A stretch of 64,000 nt of DNA from an uncultured Bacillota bacterium (GTDB taxonomy: Bacteria > Bacillota_I > Bacilli_A > RF39 > UBA660). The translations under genes were made by a program, and so were the position numbers. Shown here in pieces: positions 7,144 through 63,587 of this stretch. Numbering within the stretch: the first letter of the stretch is position 1; every line of letters begins with the position of its first letter. The DNA lies in NCBI GenBank assembly GCA_948466255.1, contig CAOJZV010000003.1, positions 9,722 through 73,721 of the forward strand, given 5' to 3'. The notes under the pieces were generated by a model. The model was not told the DNA's origin and did no database searches. It saw only the letters and a program-made list of their open reading frames with translations.

Positions 7144-7183
7144 TGTAATATACGATATTTTATAGGCAAATTCCTTGTTAAAA
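7144..7183 (-). repeat. Dispersed ~40-bp element, copy 1
   Basis: tgtaatatacgatattttataggcaaattccttgttaaaa; 36/40 identical to 18001-18040. Confidence 0.9.
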
Positions 7184-7212
7184 TTAAAAAAACTTTAGAT
7201 TTTTCTAAAGTT

Positions 7213-9504
7213 TTATACAGTTTGACCTATTTCTTTTATATTTATTTCGGTTTTATTATCAATTAAAGCTTCAATAACTAATGTTTCAATTTCATCTTTT
7301 ATGACTTTATTTACTTTTCTTGCGCCATATTCTTCATAGTTTGTTTCTTTGATAATATCATTTATAACTTTAGGTGCGATTTTAATATTAATTTTATCTT
7401 TATATTTTTCTTTTAAATCTTTTAATTTCATATTTATTATTTTTGTAATATCTTTTTCATTTAGGCTATTAAATTTAATCACACTATCAACTCTATTCAT
7501 AAACGGAATTGAAAATTTATCATTTAATTTTGTTTTGACTTTATTTTCGTTATTGAAGCCAACATTGATATCATGAAAACCAACATTTGAAGTCATGATT
7601 ATAACAACATTATCAAATCTAACTATATTTGATTTACTATCTTTTATTTTCCCTTCATCTAAAACTTGTAAGAAAAGATTTATTATGTCACTATGGGCTT
7701 TTTCTATTTCATCTAAAATTAAAACTGAATATGGTTTGTTTTTTATTTGTTCTAAAATGTTTGTAGTGTCTTCATAACCAACATATCCTGGAGGGGCTCC
7801 TACTATTTTACTTATACTATGGGCTTCTTTATATTCGCTCATATCAAGTCTAATAACGTTTTTAGAGCCAACTAGATTATTACCAAACAATTTAGCAAGT
7901 TCAGTTTTACCTACTCCAGAAGGGCCACAAAATAAGCAAGAATAGCATTTATCATTTAAACCTAATTTTATTTTTTTAGCTATGTTTGAAACTTTTTTAA
8001 CTGCTTCATCTTGACCAATTAGTTTTTCTTTTATTATTTTTTCGGTTTGTTTAATAATTGTTTTCTTTTCATTTAATAATTCATAAATAGGAATTCCTGT
8101 TTTACTATTTACAACAATAGCCACATCTTCTTTAGTAACTTTTTTAGGTTTCTTTTTATAAAGCGTTAATTCTAAATTATTTATTTCATTCATTAGTTTA
8201 AATTCTTCGTTTTTATATTCTGAAGCTTTGGTAAAGTCATTGTTAATAATAGCTTCTTTTTTATTTGCAATCATGTTTTTTAATTCTTTATTATATTCTT
8301 TATAAAGGCTCATATTTTTACTTTCTTTTAAACTTGTTTTAGCACACACTTCATCTAAGATATCTATTGATTTGTCTGGTTCATTACGATTATATATGTA
8401 TTTTTCCGATAATTTAATTATTAAGTCTATAATTCCATTTTCAATAGTTACGTTGTGATAGGACTCATAAATATCTTTTAGGTTAGTTAGTATATCTTTG
8501 GTTGTTTCTTTTGTTGGAGCTTCGATTGTTACTTTTTGAAATCTTCTTTCTAGGGCACTGTCTTTAGCAATATATTTTTTATATTCATCAGTTGTGGTGG
8601 CCCCTATACATCTTAATTTACCTCTAGCTAAAGCCGGTTTAAATATATTGGACGCATCTATTGCACCTTCGGCACCCCCTGCTCCTACTAAAGTATGAAC
8701 TTCGTCTATGAAAAGAATAATATCATCATTTTCTTCTATTTCTTTTAGGATTTTATGCATTCTTTCTTCGAATTCACCGCGGTATTTTGTTCCGGCAACA
8801 CAGGCCCCCATATCTAGGCTGATGATTCTTTTATTTTTTAGAGAAATTGGAACATCGCCACTTATTATCATTCTAGCAAGTTCTTCGACTATTGCAGTTT
8901 TCCCTACTCCTGCTTCACCTATCAATAAAGGGTTGTTTTTAGTTCTTCTAGAAAGTATTTCTAGTACTCTTTTTATTTCGTTATCACGACCAGTAACAGG
9001 GTCTAATTCGCCATTTAAAGCTCTTTTATTTAAATCTACTCCTAATTCTTCTAAAAAGAGCTTTTTATTACCTTTTTGGCTCGTTAATTTAAATGTAAAT
9101 TCATTATATAAGTCATCTATATCTATATCCATGCCAATTAGAACTCTGATCGCTACTCCTTCTCCTTCTTCTAATAAACTGGCGAATAAATGACTTACGG
9201 TAACATTACCATTATTATTTTCTTTGGCATCTAAAGTAGCATTTTCAATTATTCTTTTTAAAAGTGGTGTATAAAGGAAAAATTCACTAGGTTTAGTACC
9301 TTTACCTATTATTTTTATTATTTCATTTTTAAATGTTTTATAATCTAATTCATAATCTTTTAGTCTTTCACTAATTTCATTATCACATTTTAAAATAGCT
9401 AATAGAAGATGTTCGGAAGATACATAAGGATGATTTAAATTTTGCATTTCTCCTTTAGCTACTATTAATACTTTTCTTGCTTCTTCTTCAAAATTGCTGA
9501 ACAT
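7213..9504 (-). CDS. clpC: ATP-dependent Clp protease ATP-binding subunit
   Basis: Clp-N repeats, two AAA modules (GEAGVGKT, GPSGVGKT), GTKYRGEFEER, GAPPGYVGY. Confidence 0.92.
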   Translation of the reverse strand: MFSNFEEEARKVLIVAKGEMQNLNHPYVSSEHLLLAILKCDNEISERLKDYELDYKTFKNEIIKIIGKGTKPSEFFLYTPLLKRIIENATLDAKENNNGNVTVSHLFASLLEEGEGVAIRVLIGMDIDIDDLYNEFTFKLTSQKGNKKLFLEELGVDLNKRALNGELDPVTGRDNEIKRVLEILSRRTKNNPLLIGEAGVGKTAIVEELARMIISGDVPISLKNKRIISLDMGACVAGTKYRGEFEERMHKILKEIEENDDIILFIDEVHTLVGAGGAEGAIDASNIFKPALARGKLRCIGATTTDEYKKYIAKDSALERRFQKVTIEAPTKETTKDILTNLKDIYESYHNVTIENGIIDLIIKLSEKYIYNRNEPDKSIDILDEVCAKTSLKESKNMSLYKEYNKELKNMIANKKEAIINNDFTKASEYKNEEFKLMNEINNLELTLYKKKPKKVTKEDVAIVVNSKTGIPIYELLNEKKTIIKQTEKIIKEKLIGQDEAVKKVSNIAKKIKLGLNDKCYSCLFCGPSGVGKTELAKLFGNNLVGSKNVIRLDMSEYKEAHSISKIVGAPPGYVGYEDTTNILEQIKNKPYSVLILDEIEKAHSDIINLFLQVLDEGKIKDSKSNIVRFDNVVIIMTSNVGFHDINVGFNNENKVKTKLNDKFSIPFMNRVDSVIKFNSLNEKDITKIINMKLKDLKEKYKDKINIKIAPKVINDIIKETNYEEYGARKVNKVIKDEIETLVIEALIDNKTEINIKEIGQTV

Positions 9505-9605
9505 ATTTATCTCCTTTCATTTAATTCTATGTATATATTGAGCAGTTATTTTAATTTCTAATCAACAATTTTTTCGAAAAATAAAAAGGATATTTTTTTC
9601 TATCC

Positions 9606-10580
9606 TTACATTGTATAAACTCTTTTTATATTGTATATAGCTTTTATTGTTTTTGGTAAGTTTATAATAACTAATCCTGTTATTAATTCTTTTGGTTGTG
9701 GTGTTGGGATTAGTTCTTTTGGGGTACCAAAAATATCTGGTGTTTCTTCTATTTTTTGTTTGGCGACTTTTACTTGTTCTTCATTTATTGCATCTACTAG
9801 ATTAATTGGTTTTATTTTTTCTTTACCTATCAATGTTTTATCTAATGGGTCTTCTGGTTCTAGTGGTTCTAGAGGTTCTAAAACTTCTATTTTTGGTTGT
9901 TCTATTAAGGTTTGTTCTTTTGATTCCTCTAGTTTATTAGGCGCAAATAATAATTCTTCTGGCTCTGTAGTGCTTAATAATTTTGCTCTTTCAATATTAC
10001 GATATTTTTTTACTTGTTCATCTTTAGCATCTAGTTTTTCAGTTATTTTTTCTATAGCTGTAAAGATTAAAACGGCTAAAACCTGAAGAGCAAATGCTCC
10101 CATTAGTAATTGCATAAGAGTTAAAACATCGCTATTTGAATATAAAGCATTTTCTTTATATATATCGATTTTGTTTACTTGAATAACAGTTAAGATTAAA
10201 CAAAATATTGTTTGTACTATTGCAAATCCTGTAATATTTATTATTTTGTTTACTTTAAGCATATATTTTTTTAAAAATGTGATTAAGGCAATAATTGCAG
10301 AGGCAATTACTACAATAAATAATGTGACAAAATTTGGGAAGTATAGTACCATAAATAAGCTATCAATTACATTATCTAATAAAGCAAATATGGCTCCTTT
10401 TCCAACAAATAAAACTATTAAAATAATGGCTATATAAATGGCAATTATAAATTTTTTATGTATTTTTTTATTTAAGGCGAAAATTAAAATTGGTGAAAGT
10501 AGTAAAAGAATAAAAACTGGGTGGGCAATTATATTTTCCCATAAAATTCCTAATTTTTCTAAAAAACTCAGCCTTTCCAT
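9606..10580 (-). CDS. Hypothetical membrane protein with acidic Pro/Glu-rich tail
   Basis: About 5-6 hydrophobic segments followed by an EPLEPLEPEDP-type tail. Confidence 0.75.
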   Translation of the reverse strand: MERLSFLEKLGILWENIIAHPVFILLLLSPILIFALNKKIHKKFIIAIYIAIILIVLFVGKGAIFALLDNVIDSLFMVLYFPNFVTLFIVVIASAIIALITFLKKYMLKVNKIINITGFAIVQTIFCLILTVIQVNKIDIYKENALYSNSDVLTLMQLLMGAFALQVLAVLIFTAIEKITEKLDAKDEQVKKYRNIERAKLLSTTEPEELLFAPNKLEESKEQTLIEQPKIEVLEPLEPLEPEDPLDKTLIGKEKIKPINLVDAINEEQVKVAKQKIEETPDIFGTPKELIPTPQPKELITGLVIINLPKTIKAIYNIKRVYTM

Positions 10581-10604
10581 ACTTTCACTTCCTTTTTTAT
10601 TCTT

Positions 10605-12251: not shown

Positions 12252-12261
12252 ACCTCTCACC

Positions 12262-17059: not shown

Positions 17060-17076
17060 TTTTATCTACATTTTTT
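17044..17076. terminator. Bidirectional intrinsic terminator
   Basis: aaaaaatgtagat / atctacatttttt inverted repeat between convergent genes. Confidence 0.75.
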
Positions 17077-17962
17077 ATATTTGTAATTTATATGTGGTTG
17101 TAAAGATTCTTTCGTCTGTACAATATTTTAAAACATATCCATTTATATCCTTACAAATAATGACCCCTACTGTTTTATCATTAGATGTTTCTTTTATATT
17201 TTCATCTACATAATTTATATATTTTTTAACTTGTCCAATATACTCAGCCTTAAATTCAGTTACTTTTATTTCTACTACTACAAAACAATTAAATTTATAA
17301 TTAAATAATAGAAAATCTATCGAATGATTATCCTTACCTATTTTAATTTTTACCTCATGTCCAATATAAGCAAAACCTATGCCAAGTTCTTTAAGAAAAC
17401 CTTCCATATTTTCTAAAATTAAATTATGAAGTGCATATTCTGTTACCTTTTCAGGTATATTTTTAGATTTAATAACAATTGGATCTTTAATTAATGTATT
17501 TACTTTTGGTTCAGATAACTCTTCTTTATATCCAATTCTTTCATATTCTTTTGATTTGATTCTTTCTTCTAATTCTCTATATGAGATATTTTGACTGATT
17601 GCAATATTAATGTAATAATCCAATGCTTTATTATCTTGTATAGATAATAAATAACGATAATGTGTCCATGACAATTCGGCACGCATTGCGTGCCCTTTTT
17701 GTACAAACAAATAAAATTTACGCATATATTTTAAGTTTCTAGCAGAATAACCTTTTCCAATTTCTCTAGTTAATTTCTCAGAATATTCCTTAATAAGTTT
17801 ATTTCCATATTTAGCCCTTTCCTCACCACCTTGGGCTTCTATAAGCAATTTCCCTACTTCATAATATGTTTGTAAATCACTTTTGTTCTTTGAATAATCT
17901 TTAGCCTGTTTATACATTTCATTTTTTATTAATGTATCTTTTATTTCTGTATAATAGTTCAT
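17075..17962 (-). CDS. YhcG/DUF1016 PD-(D/E)XK nuclease-family protein
   Basis: YYEVGKLL, GYSARNLKYMRKFY, LSWTHY, IKDP, ELG.GFAYIG, IDFLLFN...CFVVVEIK, GQV..YINY. Confidence 0.88.
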   Translation of the reverse strand: MNYYTEIKDTLIKNEMYKQAKDYSKNKSDLQTYYEVGKLLIEAQGGEERAKYGNKLIKEYSEKLTREIGKGYSARNLKYMRKFYLFVQKGHAMRAELSWTHYRYLLSIQDNKALDYYINIAISQNISYRELEERIKSKEYERIGYKEELSEPKVNTLIKDPIVIKSKNIPEKVTEYALHNLILENMEGFLKELGIGFAYIGHEVKIKIGKDNHSIDFLLFNYKFNCFVVVEIKVTEFKAEYIGQVKKYINYVDENIKETSNDKTVGVIICKDINGYVLKYCTDERIFTTTYKLQI

Positions 17963-17990
17963 TTTTCATCTCCTTTATTTACTAAAATTT

Positions 17991-18040
17991 GCACCTCTAA
18001 TGTAATATACGAGATTTATAAGGCAAATTCCTTGTTAAAA
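17991..18040 (-). repeat. Dispersed ~40-bp element, copy 2
   Basis: gcacctctaatgtaatatacgagatttataaggcaaattccttgttaaaa, directly upstream of the DUF1016 gene. Confidence 0.9.
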
Positions 18041-18096
18041 ATGAAAAAAGTTGTAAAAAAATGAAATTTCTTTTAAAAAAAGAAAATAGCTTTTTA

Positions 18097-19869
18097 CTAT
18101 TTTCTATCTATAAACCAATTTGTGCTTATGTCACAGCTACTACTTGATGGGGCTGGATTTGGTTTATCTAATTTTACGAGTACTGGTACCCTAAAAGCAT
18201 TACCAAAGGCAATACAATTACCTGGTTGTAACACTCTTAAACGTTTGATAATTTCACTTGTAATATTAGGTACCATTTCTTTAATATAGTTTATATCTCT
18301 TGGATGAAGCATTTTAAAAATTAAGAAGTTTGAACATTGTGAGATTGATGTTTCTGATAAATCAGATGGTCTTTGTGAAATAAGTCCTAGTAAAACACCA
18401 TATTTTCTTCCTTCTTTAGTAATTCTATCAAAAATATTATATCCTAATAAATTAATATCATTATCATTTTGAACATATCTATGTGCTTCTTCTAGAATAA
18501 TGTGGAATGGTAGTGATGCTCTTTTATCTAAATTTTTAGCATATTCGAATAATAATCTTGAATAAATTTTTGTTAATGTTTTAGCAAATCTATCATCAAC
18601 ATAGTTTATATTAAAGTTTATTATTTGAGCTTTTCTACCATTCCCTACTAATAATAAGTTTTTAATATAATCATCTATGCTTATGTATTCTTTGCAATCA
18701 AAATATGTAGCATAGTCACTATTAATTAAGGTTCTTAATCTAACTTTTAAGACATTGGCTTCATCATATATTTTTTCGCTATTTAGTGAACCTTCTGAAA
18801 TAAGTGCGAAGTCCAAAGCTAATTTTAAATCATTTAAACCATATTTAAATGAACCATCTGGCATTGTAAGTTCAATACTATTATCTAAGAATGATTGCAT
18901 GTATTTTGTGATTAATTCCATTTCTCTTATTTTCCCGCTGGAATCAATTATTAGACATTGTTTTAATGACCTAACATATCCCGGCTGATATATTTGTGAA
19001 TCTAAATTTAAATCTTTTGTTTTATAATTTGATAATACCGAGAATATTTGGTCTCTTATTTGAGAAGCTGATTTACCACTTGATAAAATATCTAAGATTG
19101 CTCTTGCAATAATGTCATTTTTTTGTTTTATTACTTCTGCTTCATCTCTTGCAAAAACATTTACTAGTTTTAGGGCTTTTTCAATGATTGGAAGTTGTGT
19201 TGGTTTTTCCGCATTTAAAAGTAAAGCGATATCATCAACATCAAGTAACCATAATGGAATTTTTATAGTTTCTGAATCTGAAAATTTTGTATTTGTTGTA
19301 TAAGCTTTAAATGATACCTCTGGAGCTAGTTTACTAATTTCTTTAAAAGCTGAATGATATTCACCGTAAGCATCAAATATGAATATGCTAGCTCTATAAG
19401 CAACTGTATTTTTTTTATCAAAAATACTTTGAATCAAATGCGCAGTTCCCCAAGATTTTCCTGAACCACTATTTCCAAAAATGGCGAAATGATTTGAAAA
19501 GAAATCATTAATGTTAAAGCCAATTTTAACACCATCATAAATTGGGCTTGTTCCGATATATAAGTCTTTTCTTTCCTTATAATTATCAACACTGATAATC
19601 ATTGGAATTTTTTCTTTAGATATTAATTTTACTGATGATCCAAATGATGGCTTTCTCATAACACCAAAAACAAATTTATTATCTATTATTTCTCCTAATA
19701 AATTTATATATGCAATTCCATCTTTAATACTAGCAATTTCTCCTACTATTATTTTGTCGTCATCTTCCATGACAACGTGTAAGTTTACTAAATTTTGAAA
19801 CTCTTTTAATTCGATATTTAATTTAACTAGAACTGTATCTTCTTCTAGCCCCATTATTACTCCTAACAT
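18097..19869 (-). CDS. HerA/FtsK-like ATPase (DUF87) with N-terminal HAS barrel
   Basis: HFAIFGNSGSGKS, ILEEAHRY, KEGRKYG, ISQRPSDL; AGGTGA RBS before MLGVIMG. Confidence 0.85.
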   Translation of the reverse strand: MLGVIMGLEEDTVLVKLNIELKEFQNLVNLHVVMEDDDKIIVGEIASIKDGIAYINLLGEIIDNKFVFGVMRKPSFGSSVKLISKEKIPMIISVDNYKERKDLYIGTSPIYDGVKIGFNINDFFSNHFAIFGNSGSGKSWGTAHLIQSIFDKKNTVAYRASIFIFDAYGEYHSAFKEISKLAPEVSFKAYTTNTKFSDSETIKIPLWLLDVDDIALLLNAEKPTQLPIIEKALKLVNVFARDEAEVIKQKNDIIARAILDILSSGKSASQIRDQIFSVLSNYKTKDLNLDSQIYQPGYVRSLKQCLIIDSSGKIREMELITKYMQSFLDNSIELTMPDGSFKYGLNDLKLALDFALISEGSLNSEKIYDEANVLKVRLRTLINSDYATYFDCKEYISIDDYIKNLLLVGNGRKAQIINFNINYVDDRFAKTLTKIYSRLLFEYAKNLDKRASLPFHIILEEAHRYVQNDNDINLLGYNIFDRITKEGRKYGVLLGLISQRPSDLSETSISQCSNFLIFKMLHPRDINYIKEMVPNITSEIIKRLRVLQPGNCIAFGNAFRVPVLVKLDKPNPAPSSSSCDISTNWFIDRK

Positions 19870-19932
19870 ATTATCACCTAATATAATGTTATCACAAACC
19901 AAAAATTGTGTAAAGAAAAAGTGTTAGATTAC

Positions 19933-30987: not shown

Positions 30988-31160
30988 TAAAAGAAAAAGA
31001 TACCACGTGTTCTAGGAACGAAAAGCCGTGGTACCATCCTAATTAATCTTAATTTATATAACGGTTTTACCCGGATGTGTTTGCACATCACTAAAAAGGA
31101 GCTTTCAGTTAATTTGTTTTACTAGTTTCCACCTAACACTAGCTCTCTATAAAAACTAAA
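30988..31160 (-). ncRNA. T-box riboswitch leader (Ala specifier)
   Basis: Minus strand AGAGAG..GGTGGAA stem I boxes, GAAA-GCT-CC specifier (31100-31102), T-box AGGATGGTACCACGG (31026-31040), terminator TACCACG/CGTGGTA plus T-run; upstream of alaS. Confidence 0.85.
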
Positions 31161-31165
31161 TTAAC

Positions 31166-32374
31166 TTACTTTTCTTTTTTTGCGTTTTTATTTATTTTTT
31201 TTACTCTAATTTTTGTATCGGAGACTTCTAAAAGTTCAGGCTGCCTATCAATAATACCATATTTCTTATCAAAGAATTGGAATATTGTTTTTCCAACTGC
31301 AATACATGGAGTTGAAATGATCATTCCTAATATTCCAAAGAAATATCCAAATACTAATAGTCCTAGCATAATTGTTACTGGATGTAGTTTTGTTGTTTTT
31401 GACATAATAAATGGCTGTAAGAAGTTCCCCTCTAAGAATTGAATTACTACAATTACTATTAATGATAAAATTCCGATTGTTGGGCTTTGAGTAAATCCAA
31501 CGATTACGGCTGGGGCTCCCCCGATATATGGTCCAGCATATGGGATAAGATTTGTAAGGCCACAGAAGAAACCGAATAAGGCAGGTGCCTTTAATCCAAC
31601 TAACCATAAACCTATTGAAGTTAAAATAAATACTGCTGAACAATCTATTATGGCGCCATTTACATATTTTCTAAGTGAATTATTAACATCGTTAATTAAA
31701 TCCATACTTGTTTCTCTAAATTTTCTTGGTAAAAAATTAATAAGTGCAGCTTTTGATGTAGAACTTACAAGTAGGAAAAATCCGATGATTAGCCCTAATA
31801 CAAGTGTGCCCATACCAGAGAAGAATCCCGATATAATGTTAAATAATACTGCTGGAAGTTCTTTGGTTATGCCTGCTGCTGTTTGATTGAATTTACTAAA
31901 GAATTCATCCTTTATGGCGTCTGCATCAATATTTTGAATGTTATTTATGTGTTCAAATATTCCTAAACACCATGTTTTTATAGATTCAAATACATTGGGA
32001 GCTATTTTTGCAAATTCCGTTATTTGATTTGCAAGGAGTGGAATTAAAGCAGCAAGTACTAAAAATACGATTAGGAATAAAATTAAATATGTTATTATGG
32101 CTCCAAAGGTTCTTTTTATTCCTTTTGTTTGCATCCATTTTACAAAAGGATCAAATAGCCAAGCTATTAAAATACCTATAAATAATGGGGCAACAATTTT
32201 TATTACTGTCCATATAAAGCTTAAAATGTTTGTTTCTTTAAATAATAGTATAATTAAATATAAGCCTAGTGCGACTAATAGAAAGTATGTAACATTTAGT
32301 ACTTTTGAAGCACGATCAGCTACTTCATTTATTTTCTGCTTATCTATATTTGTACTAGATTTTTTTCTAAGCAT
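31166..32374 (-). CDS. AI-2E family transporter
   Basis: IAWLFDPFVKW, GLTNLIPYAGPYIG, QFLEGNFLQPFIM, LHPVTI. Confidence 0.9.
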   Translation of the reverse strand: MLRKKSSTNIDKQKINEVADRASKVLNVTYFLLVALGLYLIILLFKETNILSFIWTVIKIVAPLFIGILIAWLFDPFVKWMQTKGIKRTFGAIITYLILFLIVFLVLAALIPLLANQITEFAKIAPNVFESIKTWCLGIFEHINNIQNIDADAIKDEFFSKFNQTAAGITKELPAVLFNIISGFFSGMGTLVLGLIIGFFLLVSSTSKAALINFLPRKFRETSMDLINDVNNSLRKYVNGAIIDCSAVFILTSIGLWLVGLKAPALFGFFCGLTNLIPYAGPYIGGAPAVIVGFTQSPTIGILSLIVIVVIQFLEGNFLQPFIMSKTTKLHPVTIMLGLLVFGYFFGILGMIISTPCIAVGKTIFQFFDKKYGIIDRQPELLEVSDTKIRVKKINKNAKKEK

Positions 32375-39644: not shown

Positions 39645-40622
39645 TTATAAAGCTTTATTTATTACAGATTTTGTTGTTTTTTGACCAATGCTTTTTTTAT
39701 TTTGGTAAGTTGTTATTTTTATGTTATCTGTATTTAGATACTTTTCTATATTTTCATCGCCTTTTCTACAGATTAATATTCCTATCGTTGGATTATGGTG
39801 AGGCTTTTTTAATTCTAAATCAATATAGTTAATGTAAAATTGTAACTGTCCAATATCTTCTTTTTTTAGGTCTTGAATTTTTAATTCAATAACTACATAG
39901 CAATCTTTTTCAACATTAAAAAATAATAAATCTATATAATGAAATTTACCGCCTACTTTTAGTTTCTTTTCACTTCCCATAAATGAAAATCCTGCACCTA
40001 ACTCTAAAAGAAATGTCTCTATTTGTTTTAATATTGCCTGTTTTAAGGCCTTTTCGTTTAGTTCTTTATCTTTTAATTCTTGTAAATCAATTAGAAGTGG
40101 GTCCTTTATAAATTCCATTATGTTCATTGTGTCATCCTTTCTCATTATTTCAATATTTTCTTTTGTCTTATCATCCAATCTTTCAAAAGCATTGTTTTTT
40201 ATTTCTTCTTGCAACTGCCTTACTGAGATATTATTCTTATTTATTAAATTAATATAGTAATTTCTTTTGCTTTTATCTTTGATGGGTAATATATTTACTA
40301 TATGTGTCCAAGTGATGAAATGTTGCGTCAGTGACGCAACATTTGGAAAAAGTAAATAAAATTTTTTCATTCTTGTTAATGATGTATAATTATAACCGGC
40401 TCCGTATAAATTGGTTAGTTCTATTCCAAGTTCTTTTATATAACTATTTCCATATCTTATTTTGTCTTCATTGTAGGCATTTACTATTTCTTTTCCAATA
40501 TTCCAATTAGTAATTAATTTATCTCTTTCTTCCTCTGAGTTTCTTACTTTATTTTGTACTATATTGTTCTCAATTAGTGTTTTTATGTTTTTTGTATAAA
40601 TATTTTCTTTTATTTGTGGCAT
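39645..40622 (-). CDS. YhcG/DUF1016 PD-(D/E)XK nuclease-family protein (second paralog)
   Basis: NWNIGKEI, ITWTH, IKDP, LLELGAGFSFMG, YIDLLFFN...CYVVIELK, GQLQFYINY. Confidence 0.88.
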   Translation of the reverse strand: MPQIKENIYTKNIKTLIENNIVQNKVRNSEEERDKLITNWNIGKEIVNAYNEDKIRYGNSYIKELGIELTNLYGAGYNYTSLTRMKKFYLLFPNVASLTQHFITWTHIVNILPIKDKSKRNYYINLINKNNISVRQLQEEIKNNAFERLDDKTKENIEIMRKDDTMNIMEFIKDPLLIDLQELKDKELNEKALKQAILKQIETFLLELGAGFSFMGSEKKLKVGGKFHYIDLLFFNVEKDCYVVIELKIQDLKKEDIGQLQFYINYIDLELKKPHHNPTIGILICRKGDENIEKYLNTDNIKITTYQNKKSIGQKTTKSVINKAL

Positions 40623-40651
40623 ATTTTTCTTCCTTTCTTTTTGTTTTTTTG

Positions 40652-40723
40652 CACCTCGTATATATCCTACGAGATTTATATAGTGATTTCCTTTTTATTT
40701 TTGAAATTTTTGTATATTTTTTT
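40652..40723 (-). repeat. Dispersed element copy 3; left copy of a 72-bp exact direct repeat
   Basis: cacctcgtatatatcctacgagatttatatagtgatttcc...gtatattttttt, identical to 41321-41392. Confidence 0.95.
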
Positions 40724-40843: not shown

Positions 40844-41315
40844 TCAAGTTTTACTTGAAGCATGAGTTAAAGTAGTAGGTTCTTTCCACATTGTTTTTAT
40901 TTTTAAATATTTACTTTTTTGTGGAACAATTTCTACTACATAAGTCGTAGTATTATTTAATATTTTTATATATCTTATGGAAACACCTTCTTTATTGGGT
41001 GTTCCTTTTATTATGTAATCTGGTTTATTTATTATTTTAGGAATATTTTTAATATCTTCTTTTGTGATAGGAATTTGTTTTTTTGAATTTTCTACTTTTT
41101 TATTACCATGATTATTTAACATATGACGAATATCATTATCTAGTAAAATATGTATTCTATTATCTACATTTATGCCTAATAATAAATGTTTTTTTTGATG
41201 CTTTAATATTGATTTTACCTAAATAATTTTTATTTTTTGAGTTTTTGTTTAAAATGGCATTTTCGATTTGTTTTTCTAAATTTAAAAATAAAATATTATC
41301 TTTGTGTTGGTTCAT
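40844..41315 (-). pseudogene. Frameshifted PBECR-like (Barnase/EndoU/ColE5/RelE-superfamily) nuclease
   Basis: ATG at 41315 with GAGGTG RBS. Removing one base from the T8 run (41189-41196) joins it to ORF 40844-41122, giving about 156 aa with IRHMLNNHG..PITKEDIKNIPKIINKPD..YIK..YVVE..KTMWK. Confidence 0.65.
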
Positions 41316-41320
41316 TTTAT

Positions 41321-41392
41321 CACCTCGTATATATCCTACGAGATTTATATAGTGATTTCCTTTTTATTTTTGAAATTTTTGTATATTTTTTT
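41321..41392 (-). repeat. Dispersed element copy 4; right copy of the 72-bp direct repeat
   Basis: Identical to 40652-40723; its GAGGTG arm serves as the RBS of the PBECR-like gene. Confidence 0.95.
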
Positions 41393-58721: not shown

Positions 58722-58930
58722 ATTGTCACCTTAGTCTATCTTAAATAGATTATACCTTCTTTTTAGTTAGAAATGCAAGTGTTTATGGTAGTAAAGTGTG
58801 TAAAAAATGGTATAGTACATTTTTAATATAAATGTTTTTATTCAAATTATTACAATTAAGATTAGAAATCTAATTTACAAAATCCAAAAATTTAGTTATA
58901 ATTAAATTAAAAATAAAGGAGGCTATAGTT

Positions 58931-59371: not shown

Positions 59372-59468
59372 TTTTTTTAGAGCCGTGAACAAAATTAGTT
59401 TTGTTCACAGTTTTTTTATAATAAAAAATAGATATTATTGTTAATAATATCTAAAATAATATATTGTG

Positions 59469-60527
59469 TTATAAAATTTCCCATTCTCCGTTTCTTTTTC
59501 CATTTTTTCTAATTATTAATCCTTTTTCTTGCATTTCAATCATTCTAGTTTTTACAGTTCTTAATGATTTACCAATAATTTGAGCAATTTCTTCTTGCTT
59601 AGTAGTTGAATTTTCTCTAATTACATTTAATATAGCTTGTTCTTCTAAAGTGCAAAAATTGCATTTTGAGTCTTCGGTTGTTGCACTTTGAATATAATCA
59701 ACATGGGTATATCTATTTTTTAATTCATATTTAGCATCTGACAAAAGATTATAAAAGAACTTTTCTAAATGACTTATATCTTCAAAAATATTTTTTTCAA
59801 AATTTTTATAGTTAGCTCTAACTAATGAATTTCTAAAATACCAGGAATTATTAGCAAATATCTCATCATTAATATTAAATCCAAACGTTTTTAAATATTT
59901 AATAATAAAAACAGCTGTTGTTCTAGTATTACCCTCACAAAAAGGATGTACTTGCCATATATTTGAAGTAAATCGGCACAAATGTTTTATAGATTCATCA
60001 AGCGATAAATCTTTATATGAAAAATTTCTTTCTTGTTCAAAATCATATTCTAATGCTGGCATAATAGTTTCAAAAGAAGCATATATAACTGTATCTTTAT
60101 TTAAAATCCACTCATTCTTTGTAAAATTATAATCTCTTATAATACCTGCATGTTTATATACACCAGTAAATAATTTTTTATGAATACTTATTAGCTCAGT
60201 AGGATTAAAATTAAATGATTTATCACTTAATATTTCTGTGATCCTTACTGATACTTTATCTGCTTCTTCGCTATTTTCTTTTTCTTCTGATTTTCTATTA
60301 TCCAAAACTTTATAATAATTATTTATTTTTTCCTTAACTTCATCTAAATCAATCTTACCTTCAATATGTTCTTTAGCAGTTTCAACTAAATATTTTGAAG
60401 GTTTTAATCCATCTACTTCTTGAAGTCCTATAGCTGTTTCCCAGGCTTTGGTTTTTTCTACTTGAGTGGGGTCACCTTGTTTTATATATTCAGATAATTC
60501 TAAATTCCATTTTCCCTTTTTTTCCAT
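59469..60527 (-). CDS. Fic-domain protein with antitoxin-like N-terminus and C-terminal wHTH
   Basis: HPFCEGNTRT Fic motif; AWETAIGLQEVDGL; QEEIAQIIGKSLRTVK; AGGAGG RBS before MEKK. Confidence 0.9.
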   Translation of the reverse strand: MEKKGKWNLELSEYIKQGDPTQVEKTKAWETAIGLQEVDGLKPSKYLVETAKEHIEGKIDLDEVKEKINNYYKVLDNRKSEEKENSEEADKVSVRITEILSDKSFNFNPTELISIHKKLFTGVYKHAGIIRDYNFTKNEWILNKDTVIYASFETIMPALEYDFEQERNFSYKDLSLDESIKHLCRFTSNIWQVHPFCEGNTRTTAVFIIKYLKTFGFNINDEIFANNSWYFRNSLVRANYKNFEKNIFEDISHLEKFFYNLLSDAKYELKNRYTHVDYIQSATTEDSKCNFCTLEEQAILNVIRENSTTKQEEIAQIIGKSLRTVKTRMIEMQEKGLIIRKNGKRNGEWEIL

Positions 60528-60577
60528 TAGATTCATCCTCCTAACTATAAATATTATACCACATTTTCTCTCTTTTA

Positions 60578-60614
60578 TCAATTTCAAAGTGCAAAAATTG
60601 CACTTTGAAATTGA
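60578..60614. promoter_or_regulatory. Perfect 17-bp-arm palindrome upstream of the fic gene (candidate operator)
   Basis: tcaatttcaaagtgcaa-aaa-ttgcactttgaaattga. Confidence 0.7.
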
Positions 60615-60669
60615 ATGCATTTGCACTTAAAAAATAGTATTTTATATAAAAAAGAAGCTAAATTAGCTT

Positions 60670-61068
60670 CTAACATGTTTTACTTTCAGAATATTCATAA
60701 ACATATTTGGAACCATTCCATGATACTGTAACTGTACCATCGAAATATTCATTTTGTTCCTTTTCTTCATTACTATTTTGCTTATAATTTGGGTTTATAA
60801 TAGCATCTTTAGATAAAAGACCTTCTTTTTTTAATTGTTCAACAGTTATACATTTGCTAGAATTATTCTCTTGTTTAGGAAGTTCTAAAGAATGACTAGA
60901 CATATATGTTCTAGCTGTATCTTCAATCATTTTTATTTGATTATTATAGGCTTTTTCTTTAGAATCTTTAATAACACTATTAACAGTAGGAACTGCTATA
61001 ATAGCGATAATACCTAAAACTAAAATAACCATAACTAATTCTATTAAAGTAAATCCTTTTTGTTCCAT
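60670..61068 (-). CDS. Type IV prepilin (ComGC-like N-terminal methylation motif)
   Basis: KGFTLIELVMVILVLGIIAIIAVP. Confidence 0.88.
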   Translation of the reverse strand: MEQKGFTLIELVMVILVLGIIAIIAVPTVNSVIKDSKEKAYNNQIKMIEDTARTYMSSHSLELPKQENNSSKCITVEQLKKEGLLSKDAIINPNYKQNSNEEKEQNEYFDGTVTVSWNGSKYVYEYSESKTC

Positions 61069-61093
61069 ACGTTTCACCTATTTTAATTATAGG

Positions 61094-61756
61094 TTAATTA
61101 TTATTTAAAGTCAACCTGCTTCTAAGTTTAGTTAGAACCTTTTTTTCTCTTCTAGACACATCTACTTGACTGAGTCCTAAAGTATTTGCAATTTCAGTTT
61201 GGGTCATATCTTCATAATATCTACTTATCATAATAGATCTTTCTGGTTCTTCTAAATTTTCAAGTTCAGTTTTTAAAAATAGTAAATCATTTATATCTGC
61301 ATGAGGACTACTAAGTATTTCATGAAGCATCATGTTGGTATCACCCACATTACTATCGATACTTTTTAAACTTAATCTAGAGTTTAAAGCTTCAACGATA
61401 TAATACTCTGGGATTTCTAAATAATCGCTTAATTCTTTTAGTGTTGGTTCATGCATAAGTGTTTGTGATAATAAAGATTTAGCTTTTTCTATTTTATTGT
61501 GAAGTTTATTAATATCTCTACTAATTTTTATACTTTTGTCTTCTCTTACAACTTTCTTCATTTCTCCTAAGATATAAGAATAAGCATATGATGTGAATTT
61601 AACGCCTTTAGTATGATCAAATTTATTATAAGCTTCAATCATACCTTTACAGCCAGCTTGATATAAATCATCTTTATCTTGATAATAAGGAAAATAGCTA
61701 GAAAGTTTGTAAATTAATTTTTCATTTTCCATGATTACTTGTGCTATATCTTGCAT
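61094..61756 (-). CDS. sigF: Sporulation sigma factor, SigF/SigG family
   Basis: DDLYQAG..G...A..KFD...GVKFTSYA...ILGE, KISR, R..EDMTQTEIA..LGLSQVDVSR; follows a spoIIAA-like gene. Confidence 0.75.
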   Translation of the reverse strand: MQDIAQVIMENEKLIYKLSSYFPYYQDKDDLYQAGCKGMIEAYNKFDHTKGVKFTSYAYSYILGEMKKVVREDKSIKISRDINKLHNKIEKAKSLLSQTLMHEPTLKELSDYLEIPEYYIVEALNSRLSLKSIDSNVGDTNMMLHEILSSPHADINDLLFLKTELENLEEPERSIMISRYYEDMTQTEIANTLGLSQVDVSRREKKVLTKLRSRLTLNNN

Positions 61757-61764
61757 ATCTCCTC

Positions 61765-62106
61765 CTATGAATTTATTAAATTTACTGCAGCTAATTCGTC
61801 AGATATAAAATTAACTTTGGAAAAAATAGGAGTTAATTTATCTGATATCTTATCATTATCACCAAGACAAATAAAACTTTGTCCTTTGTTTTTTATACAC
61901 AAATTAAAACTATTAATTAAAGCATATTTTCCATAATTATCAATTTCGTTAAGTTCTTCAATATTAAAAACTATATTTTTAATACCAACGGTTTTTTGAA
62001 ATTTGATAACTTCTGTTTCTAGTTTACTAATACTTTTTTTATCTAAACTTCCTTTAAGTCTTACAAATAGGATTCCTTTAAATGGTCTTATATCTATCTG
62101 TAACAT
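61765..62106 (-). CDS. spoIIAA: SpoIIAA-like STAS anti-anti-sigma factor (divergent)
   Basis: ILFVRLKGSLD, IKNIVFNIEEL.EID..G; directly upstream of the sigma gene. Confidence 0.7.
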   Translation of the reverse strand: MLQIDIRPFKGILFVRLKGSLDKKSISKLETEVIKFQKTVGIKNIVFNIEELNEIDNYGKYALINSFNLCIKNKGQSFICLGDNDKISDKLTPIFSKVNFISDELAAVNLINS

Positions 62107-62118
62107 ATCATCACCCTA

Positions 62119-63300
62119 TCATACTGTAGCACACTCTTTTTTCTTTTTATATAGTTTCGACAAAACTAGAATTAATATGACCAGTAATAATATCATTGGT
62201 AAAAAGGCATATAATAACCCTGATGTTTTAACTTCTTTTAAGTCGTCAATTTTTTGAATATTTAATGGATATGAAATTGCTTTAGAAGGTATTTTATAAA
62301 CATTATCAGTTTTATCTGAAACAATATTCATTTTTTTTGAGTTATCAGATTCATCTAGTTTATCATAATGTTCTTCGTTTATATTATTTACTACTTCAGG
62401 AAGAATTGTTCTTGTTCTTTTGGAATAATAATCTTTATATAATGTTTCATCTTTATATATAAAATCTTCAAAAGGCATCGTTGTATATTCATCATAATAG
62501 ATTTTGTTTAATTTATAATTACGATATAAAATGTCTTTATATTTATATAAAGTAACTTCTTCTATTTGTTTAAAAGCGTTTCCAGTTGGAAATTTTTCTT
62601 CAGAATAAAAATCTTCATATATATTATTAGGACATGAAATATCCATACCTTTCCATAGTGTATTCCTATTTTCTAAAAAAGAATGCATCATTTCATTATA
62701 AACTTCATCATCATTTCCACAATAGATATAAATTGTGCATACAGAACTACTTGTCTTATTAAATCCACTATAGGATAAAGTTAAATATCTAAGTTCTAAA
62801 TCTTCTTTAAAATTAAATTTAATATACCCATTTGGCTCAAATTCAAAATTATCATTTACATTTTCCATTTCCATATCGTATTCTATTTCTTCTCCCTTGT
62901 ATAAAATTTTAATATCAGATAAAGCTATATCGGACATTAACACTTTAATCTTTAAAAAGTTTATATCTTTAACTTTGTGATAGTGATAACCATTTATAGT
63001 TTCTATAATTCTTCCTTCTTTTTCTGATGGTTTTTCTATACTAACATCTGAATAATCTGTATAGATATAATCATCTTTATCTATAAATGGATATTCTACT
63101 GAATCGTTCTCACCATAACCTCCTAGTTCTTTTTCTAACTTATAATACTTATACCTTCTTTCTATTTTAACATCTGTTAAATCATTACTTTGAATATAAT
63201 TTTCGGTATATTCACTAAAGTCGGTATAATCCGAATATTCTAAAGCACTCGCATTTCCTACTGCGAAAAATAGTAAAAATAAAACTAAAATTTTTTTCAT
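62119..63300 (-). CDS. Secreted protein with C-terminal membrane anchor
   Basis: Signal peptide MKKILVLFLLFFAVGNASA; C-terminal hydrophobic helix followed by KKKK. Confidence 0.8.
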   Translation of the reverse strand: MKKILVLFLLFFAVGNASALEYSDYTDFSEYTENYIQSNDLTDVKIERRYKYYKLEKELGGYGENDSVEYPFIDKDDYIYTDYSDVSIEKPSEKEGRIIETINGYHYHKVKDINFLKIKVLMSDIALSDIKILYKGEEIEYDMEMENVNDNFEFEPNGYIKFNFKEDLELRYLTLSYSGFNKTSSSVCTIYIYCGNDDEVYNEMMHSFLENRNTLWKGMDISCPNNIYEDFYSEEKFPTGNAFKQIEEVTLYKYKDILYRNYKLNKIYYDEYTTMPFEDFIYKDETLYKDYYSKRTRTILPEVVNNINEEHYDKLDESDNSKKMNIVSDKTDNVYKIPSKAISYPLNIQKIDDLKEVKTSGLLYAFLPMILLLVILILVLSKLYKKKKECATV

Positions 63301-63314
63301 ATTTTTCTCCTTTC

Positions 63315-63407
63315 TTGCATAATATATTTAAATATGATAAAATAAATTTAGTGAGGTGGCCACTAGGCCCAACCTCCGGTGGGTACCTAGCTTAAGCTAG
63401 GTTTTTT
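63315..63407 (+). ncRNA. Promoter and ~57-nt sRNA, candidate type I antitoxin
   Basis: TTGCAT-17-TAAAAT with extended TG (63315-63343). The predicted transcript from about 63351 carries AACCTCC (anti-SD) and ends in a CCTAGC/GCTAGG hairpin plus T6. Confidence 0.6.
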
Positions 63408-63408
63408 A

Positions 63409-63474
63409 TTAGTGCTTTCGGGGAGATTCTCTTAGTAAAACTAAAAGTACAACAAGAATAACTAAATATTCCAT
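63409..63474 (-). CDS. Small hydrophobic peptide, candidate type I toxin (MEYLVILVVLLVLLRESPRKH)
   Basis: 21 aa, hydrophobic core with basic tail, AAGGAG RBS; overlapped by an out-of-frame 34-aa ORF (63392-63496) whose strong RBS is sequestered. Confidence 0.55.
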   Translation of the reverse strand: MEYLVILVVLLVLLRESPRKH

Positions 63475-63540
63475 ATTCTCCTTCTAAAGTTTTCATAAAT
63501 AACACCTCCTTTCATTTGGAGGTTAAACCTAGCTTTTCCG

Positions 63541-63587
63541 CCTCGTATATAATATACGAGATTTATATAGCAAATTCCTTGTTAAAA
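63541..63587 (-). repeat. Dispersed ~40-bp element, copy 5
   Basis: cctcgtatataatatacgagatttatatagcaaattccttgttaaaa; 63548-63587 is 37/40 identical to copy 2. Confidence 0.9.

What the first reader, a model, noticed from the sequence alone, without database searches (positions are those of the whole stretch)
7144..63587. Five copies of a conserved ~40-bp element, each heading an accessory toxin- or selfish-type gene
Seen: copies at 7144-7183, 17991-18040, 40652-40723, 41321-41392 and 63541-63587, all in the same orientation. Each is immediately 5' of a minus-strand accessory gene: ORF6N-PLD, DUF1016, DUF1016, a PBECR-like nuclease, and a type I toxin-like locus. None precedes a core gene. Copies 1 and 5 match copy 2 at 36/40 and 37/40, including the spacer, which is more conservation than a promoter alone needs. 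Minus-strand layout: AAGGAA(T/A)-N17-TA(TAT/GGA)T, with a CTCGTA-N7-TACGAG palindrome (perfect in copies 3-5) whose right arm runs into GAGGTG, a ready-made RBS. Inference, three options: (a) a cassette head or recombination site with a 7-bp core, as in tyrosine-recombinase sites, that delivers cargo with its own promoter and RBS like a dispersed integron; (b) a mobile promoter element; (c) a regulon for an alternative sigma factor (the AGGA -35 recalls SigH) or a repressor. No recombinase is present in the window. This is my best candidate for an undescribed system.
Basis: partly seen in the sequence, partly recalled or inferred. Interest (0 to 1): 0.82.

Follow-up and report, generated by a model that had tools for sequence, protein, structure and literature searches.

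The report
Sigma-H-type promoter heading a nuclease-rich regulon
The repeated element is the promoter read by an alternative sigma factor (sigma-H type) in a small-genome gut bacterium; it switches on DNA-uptake, primase/sigma-A and cell-wall genes together with an unusually large, changeable set of nuclease-like 'selfish' genes, and it is not a recombination site.

Summary
The element is about 65-75 bp long, not 40. It has 23 strong copies in this 1.05 Mb genome, and the family is sharply separated from background. Its layout is an A/T tract, then AAGGAAWT, a 13-nt gap, TCGTAnnnTA, and a Shine-Dalgarno sequence. This is the published sigma-H promoter layout, with GTAT in place of GAAT. The same box precedes dnaG in 73 of 80 related genomes, where the two blocks are conserved and the spacer varies freely. 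Four relatives carry canonical GAAT at the same position. Besides DUF1016, PDDEXK_2, Bro-N, ORF6N, LPD3 and PBECR3 genes, the element heads dnaG-rpoD, comEA-comEC, a STAS/SigF-like operon, an M23 hydrolase and a C39 exporter. That core set matches the experimentally defined Listeria sigma-H regulon. A divergent SigH gene lies in the canonical locus, and closed genomes of the genus hold no other candidate sigma. Empty sites in relatives keep no copy or half-site, and no repeats flank the units, so the integron-like reading is refuted. What is new is a variant -10 box and a nuclease-rich, fast-turnover accessory regulon. No transcription data could be obtained.

The parts
7132..7196 (-). Copy 1 promoter block: -35 AAGGAATT 7169-7176, -10 TCGTATATTA 7146-7155. 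A terminator hairpin plus T-tract lies just upstream (about 7186-7215).
6211..7101 (-). Gene headed by copy 1: 296-aa ORF6N-domain protein (KilA-N/Rha-like DNA-binding N-terminus).
17989..18053 (-). Copy 2 promoter block: -35 18026-18033, -10 18003-18012.
   Evidence: the sigma-70 scan finds no site here
17075..17962 (-). Gene headed by copy 2: 295-aa DUF1016_N + YhcG_C PD-(D/E)XK nuclease. The promoter+gene unit is absent from the same site in G007, G020 and G021, and is replaced by a promoter+PDDEXK_2 unit in G012.
40649..40713 (-). Copy 3 promoter block: -35 AAGGAAAT 40686-40693, -10 TCGTAGGATA 40663-40672.
39645..40622 (-). Gene headed by copy 3: 325-aa DUF1016/YhcG nuclease of the second subfamily.
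41318..41382 (-). Copy 4 promoter block: -35 41355-41362, -10 41332-41341.
40844..41315 (-). Broken PBECR3 gene headed by copy 4: a 51-aa ORF at 41160-41315 plus a 92-aa ORF at 40844-41122 that matches PBECR3 profile positions 34-112. The G046 relative has an intact 199-aa gene.
63536..63620 (-). Copy 5 promoter block with its upstream hairpin/T-tract: hairpin about 63589-63620, -35 63573-63580, -10 63550-63559.
63409..63474 (-). Small ORF in the leader of copy 5 encoding MEYLVILVVLLVLLRESPRKH, with its own Shine-Dalgarno sequence. It looks like a type I toxin peptide. The hairpin that follows has a T-run only on the opposite strand.
61094..63300 (-). Operon behind copy 5: 393-aa membrane-anchored protein (62119-63300), 113-aa STAS/SpoIIAA-like protein (61765-62106), and 220-aa SigF-like sigma factor (61094-61756). 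No terminator lies between the first two genes.
   Evidence: the G010 orthologue of the first gene carries the promoter directly (L017)

Best explanation
The element is a promoter recognised by RNA polymerase carrying an alternative sigma factor of the sigma-H family. The most likely factor is the divergent SigH orthologue encoded in the canonical rlmB-sigH-secE-nusG locus of this genome.

Anatomy, on the minus strand of the window: an A/T tract at about -45 to -52, often the T-run of an intrinsic terminator that insulates the unit from upstream transcription; a -35 box (A/C/G)AAGGAAWT; a 12-nt spacer counted in the sigma-H convention; a -10 box (C/A)TCGTAT followed by nnTAYA; a start site inferred about 7 nt further on; then a short leader that is mostly a Shine-Dalgarno sequence (GAAGGGG / GAGGTG).

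When the factor is active, about 25 transcription units fire together. The conserved core is dnaG-rpoD, comEA-comEC, a STAS/SigF-like operon, an M23 peptidoglycan hydrolase, a C39 peptide exporter, a TED surface protein and a UvrD-like helicase. A large flexible shell consists of stand-alone nuclease, KilA-N-type and polyvalent-protein-domain genes (DUF1016/YhcG, PDDEXK_2/Rpn-like, Bro-N, ORF6N, LPD3, PBECR3; in a sister species also MvaI/BcnI and MuF_C), plus a type I toxin-like peptide. The accessory genes are gained and lost together with their promoter at terminator-adjacent hotspots.

Shown: the motif, its discreteness, its position and orientation, block-wise conservation, regulon content, and filled and empty sites. 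Inferred: which sigma reads it, the start site, and co-expression.
For: 1) Discrete family: 23 copies at 30-52 bits against a null maximum of 14 bits. All are intergenic and co-oriented with a downstream ORF.

2) Invariant blocks (AAGGAA, CGTA, TA-A) alternate with freely varying columns.

3) Layout equals the published sigma-H consensus (A/G)(A/C)AGG(A/G)WWW-N11-12-(A/G)(A/G)(A/C)GAA(A/T). The Listeria sigma-H -35 boxes AAAGGAATT and GAAGGAAAT are letter-identical to those here.

4) Orthologous dnaG promoters: 73 of 80 genomes keep AAGGAWWW-N13/14-nG(T/A)AT, with GTAT in 69 and GAAT in 4. The spacer is A-rich or T-rich depending on clade. G001 has AGAAT at dnaG and AGTAT at its DUF1016 genes.

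5) The regulon core mirrors the experimentally defined Listeria sigma-H regulon of (LMRG_00908)-dnaG-rpoD, comEABC and the hydrolase lytG. It also matches the two sigma-H promoters of the B. subtilis dnaG-sigA operon and sigma-H-driven comEA in L. sakei.

6) The same orthologues and the same accessory families carry the box in sister species G046. DUF1016 genes carry it in six further species, with unrelated spacers.

7) Gene-side specificity: DUF1016 7/8, PDDEXK_2 5/6, Bro-N 3/4. The control multi-copy family DUF6273 is 0/19.

8) The SigH orthologue is best hit by NCBIfam SigH models and sits in the syntenic locus. Closed genomes of the genus have only six sigma genes (A, E, K, G, F-like, H-like), so there is no hidden candidate.

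9) No sigma-70-type promoter lies in the element. Canonical sigma-A promoters exist elsewhere, for example upstream of the second rpoD-like gene and of spo0A.
Against: There are no transcription data.

The -10 box differs from the sigma-H consensus at a normally conserved position (GTAT, not GAAT). The column corresponding to the final T of GAAT varies (17 T, 6 G). The shape CGTAnnnTA also resembles the sigma-K/E -10 box CATAnnnTA (own knowledge).

spo0A, a classical sigma-H target in B. subtilis, has no copy. The pilus/pseudopilin locus has none either.

The SigH orthologue scores well below the NCBIfam cut-off (108 against 208 bits).

Conservation extends beyond what sigma-H needs (TAYAAAT in the spacer in this subclade; ATTAWTAT after the -10 box), so a second factor or recent copying may contribute.

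SigH presence across the genus is not discriminating.
Confidence: 0.75

Rival explanations
1. A sigma-A-dependent promoter with a class II activator. TAnnnT (TATATT/TAGGAT/TATGAT) would be a sigma-A -10 hexamer, and AAGGAAWT the binding site of a dedicated activator that replaces the -35 box.
For: The variable triplet inside TA...T keeps exactly the positions sigma-A cares about most, A at position 2 and T at position 6. Conservation outside the two sigma-H blocks hints at an extra protein contact.
Against: No TTGACA-like -35 box and no TGn extension are present, and the sigma-70 scan finds nothing. CG immediately 5' of TA is invariant and matches the sigma-H -10 register. The -35 box is letter-identical to proven sigma-H boxes. 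GAAT replaces GTAT in orthologous sites. The regulon core equals known sigma-H regulons. No candidate activator was identified.
Confidence: 0.1
2. A mobile or propagated promoter module. The similarity mainly reflects recent copying of a terminator+promoter+RBS module onto, or together with, accessory genes, without a shared regulator being the point.
For: Blocks of 40-130 bp at 80-96% identity sit upstream of non-homologous genes and include non-essential spacer positions and identical upstream hairpins, for example E1/E2/E7. This formally meets the 'putative mobile promoter' criterion. Promoter+gene units are present or absent as units, and different cargo occupies one site. Copy number ranges from 0 to 23 among species of the genus.
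Against: Invariant and free columns alternate. Orthologous promoters of core genes keep the two blocks over about 80 species while the spacers turn over completely. DUF1016 genes in other species keep the boxes with unrelated spacers. No transposon ends, target duplications or recombinase are present. Copying therefore explains the extra similarity within this subclade, not the existence of the element.
Confidence: 0.08
3. A recombination site or cassette head with a 7-bp core (dispersed integron, tyrosine-recombinase target).
For: A perfect CTCGTA-N7-TACGAG palindrome occurs in copies 3-5. The genes behind the element are accessory and variably present.
Against: The palindrome is perfect in only 5 of 23 copies. 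Empty sites in G007, G020 and G021 retain no copy or half-site. The indel junctions lie at the flanking genes' terminators, with the whole element internal to the insert. Homology between paralogous units fades inside the gene's 3' end, and there is no 3' partner site or flanking repeat. The element also precedes dnaG in about 80 species at a fixed orthologous position.
Confidence: 0.02
4. An operator for a repressor overlapping the -10/+1 region, acting in addition to the promoter function. The dyad would be CGTATA-TTA-TATACG here, or TATATTAATATA in dnaG promoters.
For: Conservation continues 8-10 nt past the -10 box (ATTAWTAT in 73 dnaG promoters), and the region is dyad-symmetric in many copies.
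Against: AT-rich sequence readily gives dyads by chance. The right arm varies widely among the 23 copies. No candidate repressor gene is linked.
Confidence: 0.05

Closest known systems
Sigma-H-dependent promoters and regulon of Listeria monocytogenes and Bacillus subtilis (PMC4754846; consensus from Britton et al. 2002 as cited there)
   Same: The -35 box is identical (AAAGGAATT, GAAGGAAAT). The spacing is the same (N12), and CG sits in the same register of the -10 box. Both head dnaG-rpoD, comEA-comEC and a peptidoglycan hydrolase. The sigma gene lies in the same rlmB...secE-nusG locus.
   Different: The -10 core is GTAT, not GAAT: all 23 copies here and 69 of 73 dnaG promoters in the lineage. 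The regulon carries about 17 stand-alone nuclease, KilA-N or polyvalent-domain genes and a type I toxin-like peptide. No copy sits at spo0A or at the pilus locus. Promoters are unusually uniform within a genome.
ComX (SigX) com-box/cin-box regulon of streptococci; SigH-driven competence genes of Staphylococcus aureus and Lactobacillus sakei (PMC3364868, PMC3486894)
   Same: A sigma-H-family factor drives a small, stringent regulon centred on DNA uptake (comEA-comEC), with lytic enzymes and a fast-evolving sigma.
   Different: The box is TCGTATAT, not TACGAATA (own knowledge), and a clear AGGA -35 box is present. The organism also has sporulation sigmas. Competence itself is not shown, and the pilus genes lack the box.
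Putative mobile promoters / promoter reuse (Nijveen, Matus-Garcia & van Passel 2012, PMC3575422)
   Same: There is at least 80% identity over at least 50 nt upstream of non-paralogous genes within one genome, with no known mobile element involved.
   Different: Here the shared sequence has an identifiable function and regulator type. It is conserved block-wise at orthologous core genes across a whole lineage.
Integron attC/attI cassette system
   Same: Promoter-proximal short conserved element next to variable accessory genes, with a palindrome in some copies.
   Different: There is no integrase and no site at cassette 3' ends. Empty sites keep no copy. Each gene has its own promoter, whereas integron cassettes are usually promoterless. 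The palindrome is not conserved.

Membership tests
Sigma-H-type promoter | -35 box (A/G)(A/C)AGG(A/G)WWW | tested here: met
   23 of 23 copies have nAAGGAAWT, with GG and the flanking A's invariant. It is identical to the Listeria comEA/coiA/lytG boxes. The first position is C, G or A, so R is met only in part of the copies.
Sigma-H-type promoter | 11-12 nt between the 9-mer and the 7-mer | tested here: met
   12 nt in all five window copies (13 nt between AAGGAAWT and TCGTA). In the 73 dnaG promoters the gap measured between the AAGGAWWW 8-mer and the nGWAT pentamer is 13 nt in 64, 14 nt in 8 and 12 nt in 1; this is a different register from the 9-mer-to-7-mer count.
Sigma-H-type promoter | -10 box (A/G)(A/G)(A/C)GAA(A/T) | tested here: not met
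   The core is GTAT, not GAAT, in 23 of 23 copies. Canonical ...GAAT sites are not enriched in this genome (23 against 27 in the control). GAAT does occupy the same position in 4 of 73 orthologous dnaG promoters and in G030. This is therefore a variant of the box, not the canonical one.
Sigma-H-type promoter | Transcription depends on the SigH protein | not testable with these tools
   The sigH orthologue is present and syntenic, and it is the only AGGA-type candidate in a closed set of six sigmas.
Sigma-H-type promoter | Regulon overlaps known sigma-H regulons | tested here: met
   dnaG-rpoD, comEA-comEC, a peptidoglycan hydrolase and a spoIIAA-like/sigF-like operon carry the box, compared. 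Not met for spo0A and the comG-like pilus locus.
Integron-like / tyrosine-recombinase site | Conserved inverted repeat with a central core in all members | tested here: not met
   Perfect CTCGTA-N5-9-TACGAG occurs in only 5 of 23 copies.
Integron-like / tyrosine-recombinase site | Site marks the cassette boundary; an empty locus retains one site; a partner site lies at the other end | tested here: not met
   Empty sites lack any copy, and the element is internal to the insert. There are no flanking repeats and no conserved 3' end.
Integron-like / tyrosine-recombinase site | Cognate recombinase encoded nearby | not tested
   None was noticed among the ORFs examined next to the copies. The genome was not searched for recombinases.
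Putative mobile promoter (PMP) | At least 80% identity over at least 50 nt upstream of non-paralogous genes in one genome | tested here: met
   Many pairs qualify, for example E1 vs E7 at 85% over 104 bp, E9 vs E11 at 82% over 88 bp, and E11 vs E5 at 90% over 70 bp. The window used there (-150 to -50 from the start codon) overlaps only part of the block.
Streptococcal com-box (ComX) | TACGAATA at -10 | tested here: not met
   The box is TCGTAT(A/G)T. The com-box sequence is from own knowledge.

The most novel reading that the evidence does not exclude
In these small-genome gut Bacilli, the sigma-H-type programme that switches on DNA uptake (comEA-comEC) is wired to a flexible arsenal of stand-alone nucleases and DNA-binding proteins (YhcG/DUF1016, Rpn-like PDDEXK_2, MvaI/BcnI-like, LPD3, PBECR3, MuF_C, ORF6N/Bro-N) and a type I toxin. 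This would be a 'competence-gated' defence or DNA-processing shell. The nearly identical terminator+promoter module would double as a portable homology arm, so that cargo genes can be swapped at hotspots by homologous recombination without any dedicated recombinase.
Probability: 0.2. Interest if true: 0.7.

Novelty: new variant of a known kind. Interest (0 to 1): 0.45.

Why it matters
It turns an apparent 'mystery repeat' into a usable regulatory code for an uncultured, reduced-genome lineage of gut Bacilli. One box predicts about 25 co-regulated units per genome.

It shows a sigma-H-family promoter whose -10 core has shifted from GAAT to GTAT across a whole lineage, with both forms coexisting at orthologous sites. 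That makes it a natural case for studying sigma-promoter co-evolution.

It also links several widespread families of unknown role (DUF1016/YhcG, Rpn-like PDDEXK_2, Bro-N/ORF6N proteins, free-standing polyvalent-protein domains) to one physiological programme shared with DNA uptake, primase/sigma-A and a lytic enzyme. This gives a concrete hypothesis about when these genes act. No paper in the searched library connects them to sigma-H, ComX or competence.

For annotation, it warns against reading highly similar promoter blocks next to accessory genes as recombination sites.

Tried and rejected
- The IUPAC pattern search over relatives returned 0 even in the window's own genome, where a regex finds 21 copies. 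I treated it as a tool or syntax failure and replaced it with covariance models R1 and R2.
- Rfam finds no RNA family at any copy; the only hit in the window is a T-box at 31011-31191.
- SigH presence/absence against motif presence across 31 genomes was uninformative, because SigH is nearly universal. The four apparent absences also lack the neighbouring rlmB, which points to assembly gaps.
- The GAAT-adapted model R2 found no parallel large regulon in the GAAT-type species, only dnaG and one or two other sites.
- I looked for the box at spo0A and at the type IV pilus/pseudopilin locus. It is absent from both.
- I searched for direct repeats bracketing the units and found only artefacts of tandem copies.
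- An archaeal-style BRE/TATA reading was considered early and dropped once bacterial sigma factors and sporulation genes were found.
- An ECF-type reading (GGAAT...CGTA) was dropped because the closed genomes contain no ECF sigma.
It is absent from the closed genomes that have the regulon, and it keeps RpoD-type recognition helices (by eye).

Full report
**Observation**

The five copies are present at the stated coordinates on the minus strand. The exact boxes are:

| Copy | -35 box | -10 box |
|---|---|---|
| 1 | 7169-7176 | 7146-7155 |
| 2 | 18026-18033 | 18003-18012 |
| 3 | 40686-40693 | 40663-40672 |
| 4 | 41355-41362 | 41332-41341 |
| 5 | 63573-63580 | 63550-63559 |

The window is C3:9722-73721 of a 1.05 Mb, 28% GC assembly in 32 contigs that is 68% complete. 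Genome-wide, an nhmmer profile finds 23 copies at E <= 2.4e-9, followed by a clean gap to 5e-3. A 36-column PWM scores them at 30-52 bits, three intermediates at 11-19 bits, and the reversed-genome control at no more than 14 bits.

The conserved block is about 65-75 bp long. It consists of a T-tract (TTTTTTTC), then AA(S)AAGGAAWT, nG, TAYAAAT, (C/A)TCGTA, three variable bases, TAYA, and often GAAGGGG and a Shine-Dalgarno sequence. Invariant columns alternate with freely varying ones, which is the pattern expected from selection on contacts and not from recent copying alone.

**What lies downstream**

All 23 copies are intergenic and co-oriented with an ORF that starts 17-105 nt after the -10 region. 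Two copies have a leader of about 250 nt instead. Pfam assigns the downstream genes as follows:

- DUF1016_N+YhcG_C, 7 genes
- PDDEXK_2 (Rpn-like), 4 genes
- Bro-N, 3 genes, one of them broken
- ORF6N
- LPD3
- PBECR3, broken
- M23 peptidase
- C39-peptidase ABC exporter
- A TED-domain surface protein
- ComEA, with ComEC overlapping it downstream
- DnaG, followed by RpoD
- Behind window copy 5: a 393-aa membrane protein, then a STAS (SpoIIAA-like) protein, then a SigF-like sigma factor

Intermediate-scoring copies head another PDDEXK_2 gene, a UvrD-like helicase with a Top1-type zinc ribbon, and an LPD3 remnant. The statement 'none precedes a core gene' is therefore wrong.

From the gene side the link is tight. 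The promoter is carried by 7 of 8 DUF1016 genes, 5 of 6 PDDEXK_2 genes and 3 of 4 full-length Bro-N genes. The second ORF6N gene is an operon partner of a motif-headed Bro-N gene. A control multi-copy family, DUF6273, has 0 of 19.

**Test of the cassette / recombination reading**

Between paralogous units, homology runs from about -15/-38 relative to the box, through the gene, and fades inside the gene's 3' end at 66-86% identity. Between unrelated genes it is confined to the promoter block, 40-130 bp at 80-96% identity. No direct repeats bracket the units. The two hits found are tandem copies (E8 to E4, and E20 to E19).

I examined the site downstream of the 601-aa gene (window 18097-19902) in relatives:

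| Genomes | State of the site |
|---|---|
| G000, G046 | promoter + DUF1016 |
| G012 | promoter + PDDEXK_2 at the same junction |
| G042 | PDDEXK_2 in the opposite orientation |
| G007, G020, G021 | empty; the flanking genes are separated only by terminators, with no copy or half-site |

The indel boundaries fall at the terminators, and the whole element is internal to the insert. The palindrome is perfect in only 5 of 23 copies.

**What it is**

The genome encodes seven sigma-70-family proteins. They are SigA (directly after dnaG), a second RpoD-like protein, SigE, SigK, SigG, a SigF-like protein, and a divergent SigH. The SigH top hits are the NCBIfam SigH equivalogs, at 108 bits against a cut-off of 208. 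The SigH gene sits in the canonical locus: mini-RNase III, RlmB, SigH, two inserted ORFs, then SecE, NusG and L11. The two closed genomes of the genus have only six sigma genes (A, E, K, G, F-like, H-like), so no hidden candidate exists.

The published sigma-H consensus is (A/G)(A/C)AGG(A/G)WWW-N11-12-(A/G)(A/G)(A/C)GAA(A/T). The Listeria sigma-H -35 boxes AAAGGAATT (comEA, coiA) and GAAGGAAAT (lytG) are letter-identical to the boxes here, and their -10 box is GGCGAAT. Here the 9-mer nAAGGAAWT is followed by 12 nt and then (C/A)TCGTAT. That is the same register, including the CG, with T in place of A at one position. A sigma-70 scan finds no site in the element.

**Comparative evidence**

A covariance model built from the 23 copies finds the box in 24 of 31 genomes of the genus, with 0-23 copies each. 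In at least nine species the best hit is directly upstream of dnaG. Other hits head comEA, the C39 exporter, M23, TED proteins, PDDEXK_2 and DUF1016.

In sister species G046 (also 23 copies), the box precedes orthologues of comEA, dnaG, the C39 exporter, M23, the TED protein and the helicase. It also precedes DUF1016, PDDEXK_2, three ORF6N genes, Bro-N, PBECR3, LPD3, two MuF_C genes and an MvaI/BcnI-family endonuclease.

Across 80 named relatives (uncultured gut Bacilli or 'Tenericutes' MAGs, one labelled Candidatus Coprosoma; DnaG identity 83-54%), 73 dnaG loci carry AAGGAWWW-N13/14-nG(T/A)AT 22-42 nt before the start codon. The core is GTAT in 69 and GAAT in 4. The spacer is A-rich in some clades and T-rich in others. 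G001 and G021 of the same genus, and G030 of another family, have the canonical GAAT at exactly that position. G001 uses AGAAT at dnaG and AGTAT at its DUF1016 genes.

DUF1016 genes in G001, G004, G009, G012, G013 and G017 all carry the two boxes with species-specific spacers. In tandem DUF1016 arrays only the first gene has the promoter.

So two blocks are conserved and the spacer is free, at orthologous and non-orthologous genes alike, across a whole lineage. This is the signature of a sigma-factor promoter.

**Regulon logic**

The experimentally defined Listeria sigma-H regulon is LMRG_00908-dnaG-rpoD, comEA-EB-EC, comG, coiA, the peptidoglycan hydrolase lytG and one more operon. The B. subtilis dnaG-sigA operon has two sigma-H promoters. 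L. sakei SigH induces comEA more than 300-fold. The conserved core here (dnaG-rpoD, comEA-comEC, an M23 hydrolase, and a spoIIAA-like/sigF-like operon) matches that.

Departures: spo0A has 0A boxes and a sigma-A-type promoter but no copy of the box. The pilus/pseudopilin locus also lacks it. Canonical GAAT sites are not enriched in this genome (23 against 27 in the control), whereas CGTAT sites are (18 against 6).

**Extra features**

About 14 of the 23 copies have a stable hairpin whose 3' arm runs into the T-tract. This is an intrinsic, often bidirectional terminator that ends 8-9 nt before the -35 box. Its stem sequences differ between loci. The T-tract is also present at dnaG, where the upstream gene is divergent, so it is probably an UP-like element that often doubles as an insulator. 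In more distant relatives it is replaced by an A-tract.

Within this subclade, unrelated genes share spacer details (TAYAAAT) and even identical hairpins (E1/E2/E7). This formally meets the 'putative mobile promoter' criterion. Option (b) therefore explains the excess similarity and the unit-wise gain and loss, but not the origin of the element.

Large expansions are subclade-specific. A GAAT-adapted model finds only 1-2 sites in G001, G021, G004 and G015.

**Copy 5**

Its leader holds a 21-codon ORF (63409-63474) encoding MEYLVILVVLLVLLRESPRKH, with its own Shine-Dalgarno sequence. The hairpin after it has a T-run only on the opposite strand. In G010 the same downstream gene carries the promoter with no such insert (L017). 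The promoter therefore probably drives the toxin mRNA and reads through into the STAS/SigF-like operon. This is an inference.

**Limits**

The start site, the co-expression and the identity of the sigma are all inferred. The -10 box fails the canonical sigma-H definition at one position, so I file the element as a variant, not a canonical member. Four genomes without a SigH hit also lack the adjacent rlmB. That points to assembly gaps, but an empty search proves little. The pattern search failed technically and is disregarded.

**Verdict**

The element is a sigma-H-type promoter with a lineage-specific GTAT -10 core. It defines a conserved regulon whose unusual feature is a large, fast-turnover shell of nuclease-like and DNA-binding 'selfish-type' genes. 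No paper in the searched library links these families to sigma-H, ComX or competence.

Noticed in passing
window 63409-63474 (-), and its twin on G000 contig C15 at about 5310-5500: A 21-codon hydrophobic ORF (MEYLVILVVLLVLLRESPRKH) with its own Shine-Dalgarno sequence lies inside the roughly 250-nt leader, between the promoter and the first long gene. The hairpin CCTAGCTTAAGCTAGG that follows has a T-run only on the opposite strand. It looks like a type I toxin/antisense module inserted into the 5' UTR. The G010 orthologue (L017) lacks the insert.
   Followed up: partly
window 17963-18096, the site between the 601-aa gene and the convergent 311-aa gene: A hotspot with alternative cargo in different species: DUF1016, PDDEXK_2 in either orientation, an extra glycosyltransferase-like gene in G046, or nothing. 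The boundaries fall at the flanking terminators.
   Followed up: yes
G000 contig C8:24667-26131 (-): A second RpoD-like sigma factor of 488 aa, with a long basic N-terminal extension and a textbook sigma-A promoter (TTGACT-N17-TATATT). It is absent from the two closed genomes of the genus. NCBIfam also gives a sub-threshold match to the MZA anti-phage sigma MzaA (212 bits, cut-off 800).
   Followed up: partly
about 70-95 nt upstream of the -35 box in copies E1, E2, E7, E14, E19, E20 and E22 (for example window 63625-63650): A further shared A-rich block (AAAAAAAnATACAAAAAAAGAAA) lies upstream of the hairpin in a subset of copies. It is not explained by the promoter model and may be the tail of the propagated module.
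   Followed up: no
window 59469-60626 (-) and 60670-61077 (-): A Fic/DOC protein with a VbhA-antitoxin-like segment and a C-terminal winged helix, and a pseudopilin-like protein with an N-terminal methylation motif, directly follow the SigF-like gene.
   Followed up: no
window 40844-41315 (PBECR3); G000 C4:12358-13260 (Bro-N); C2:10577-11093 (PDDEXK_2); C12:11795-11966 (LPD3 remnant): Several motif-headed accessory genes are split or truncated while their promoters stay intact. This fits rapid turnover of the cargo.
   Followed up: partly
L094-L099 (spo0A upstream regions in six genomes of the genus): The spo0A promoter region is strongly conserved, with 0A-box-like TTCGACA / TGTCAA repeats and an extended -10 box (TGTATAAT). 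This suggests autoregulated, sigma-A-dependent spo0A in this lineage.
   Followed up: no
G009:C1:579431-582116 and G017:C66:410-3087: Tandem arrays of three DUF1016 genes, with a promoter only before the first gene.
   Followed up: no
G046 contig ends (C4, C34, C16, C8, C23, C58, C64): Many motif copies lie within a few hundred bases of contig ends, so the repeated promoter+gene units break short-read assemblies. Copy numbers in MAGs are therefore lower bounds.
   Followed up: no
window 31011-31191 (-): T-box leader (Rfam RF00230, 109.5 bits) upstream of the 190-aa/582-aa gene pair. It is unrelated to the finding.
   Followed up: no
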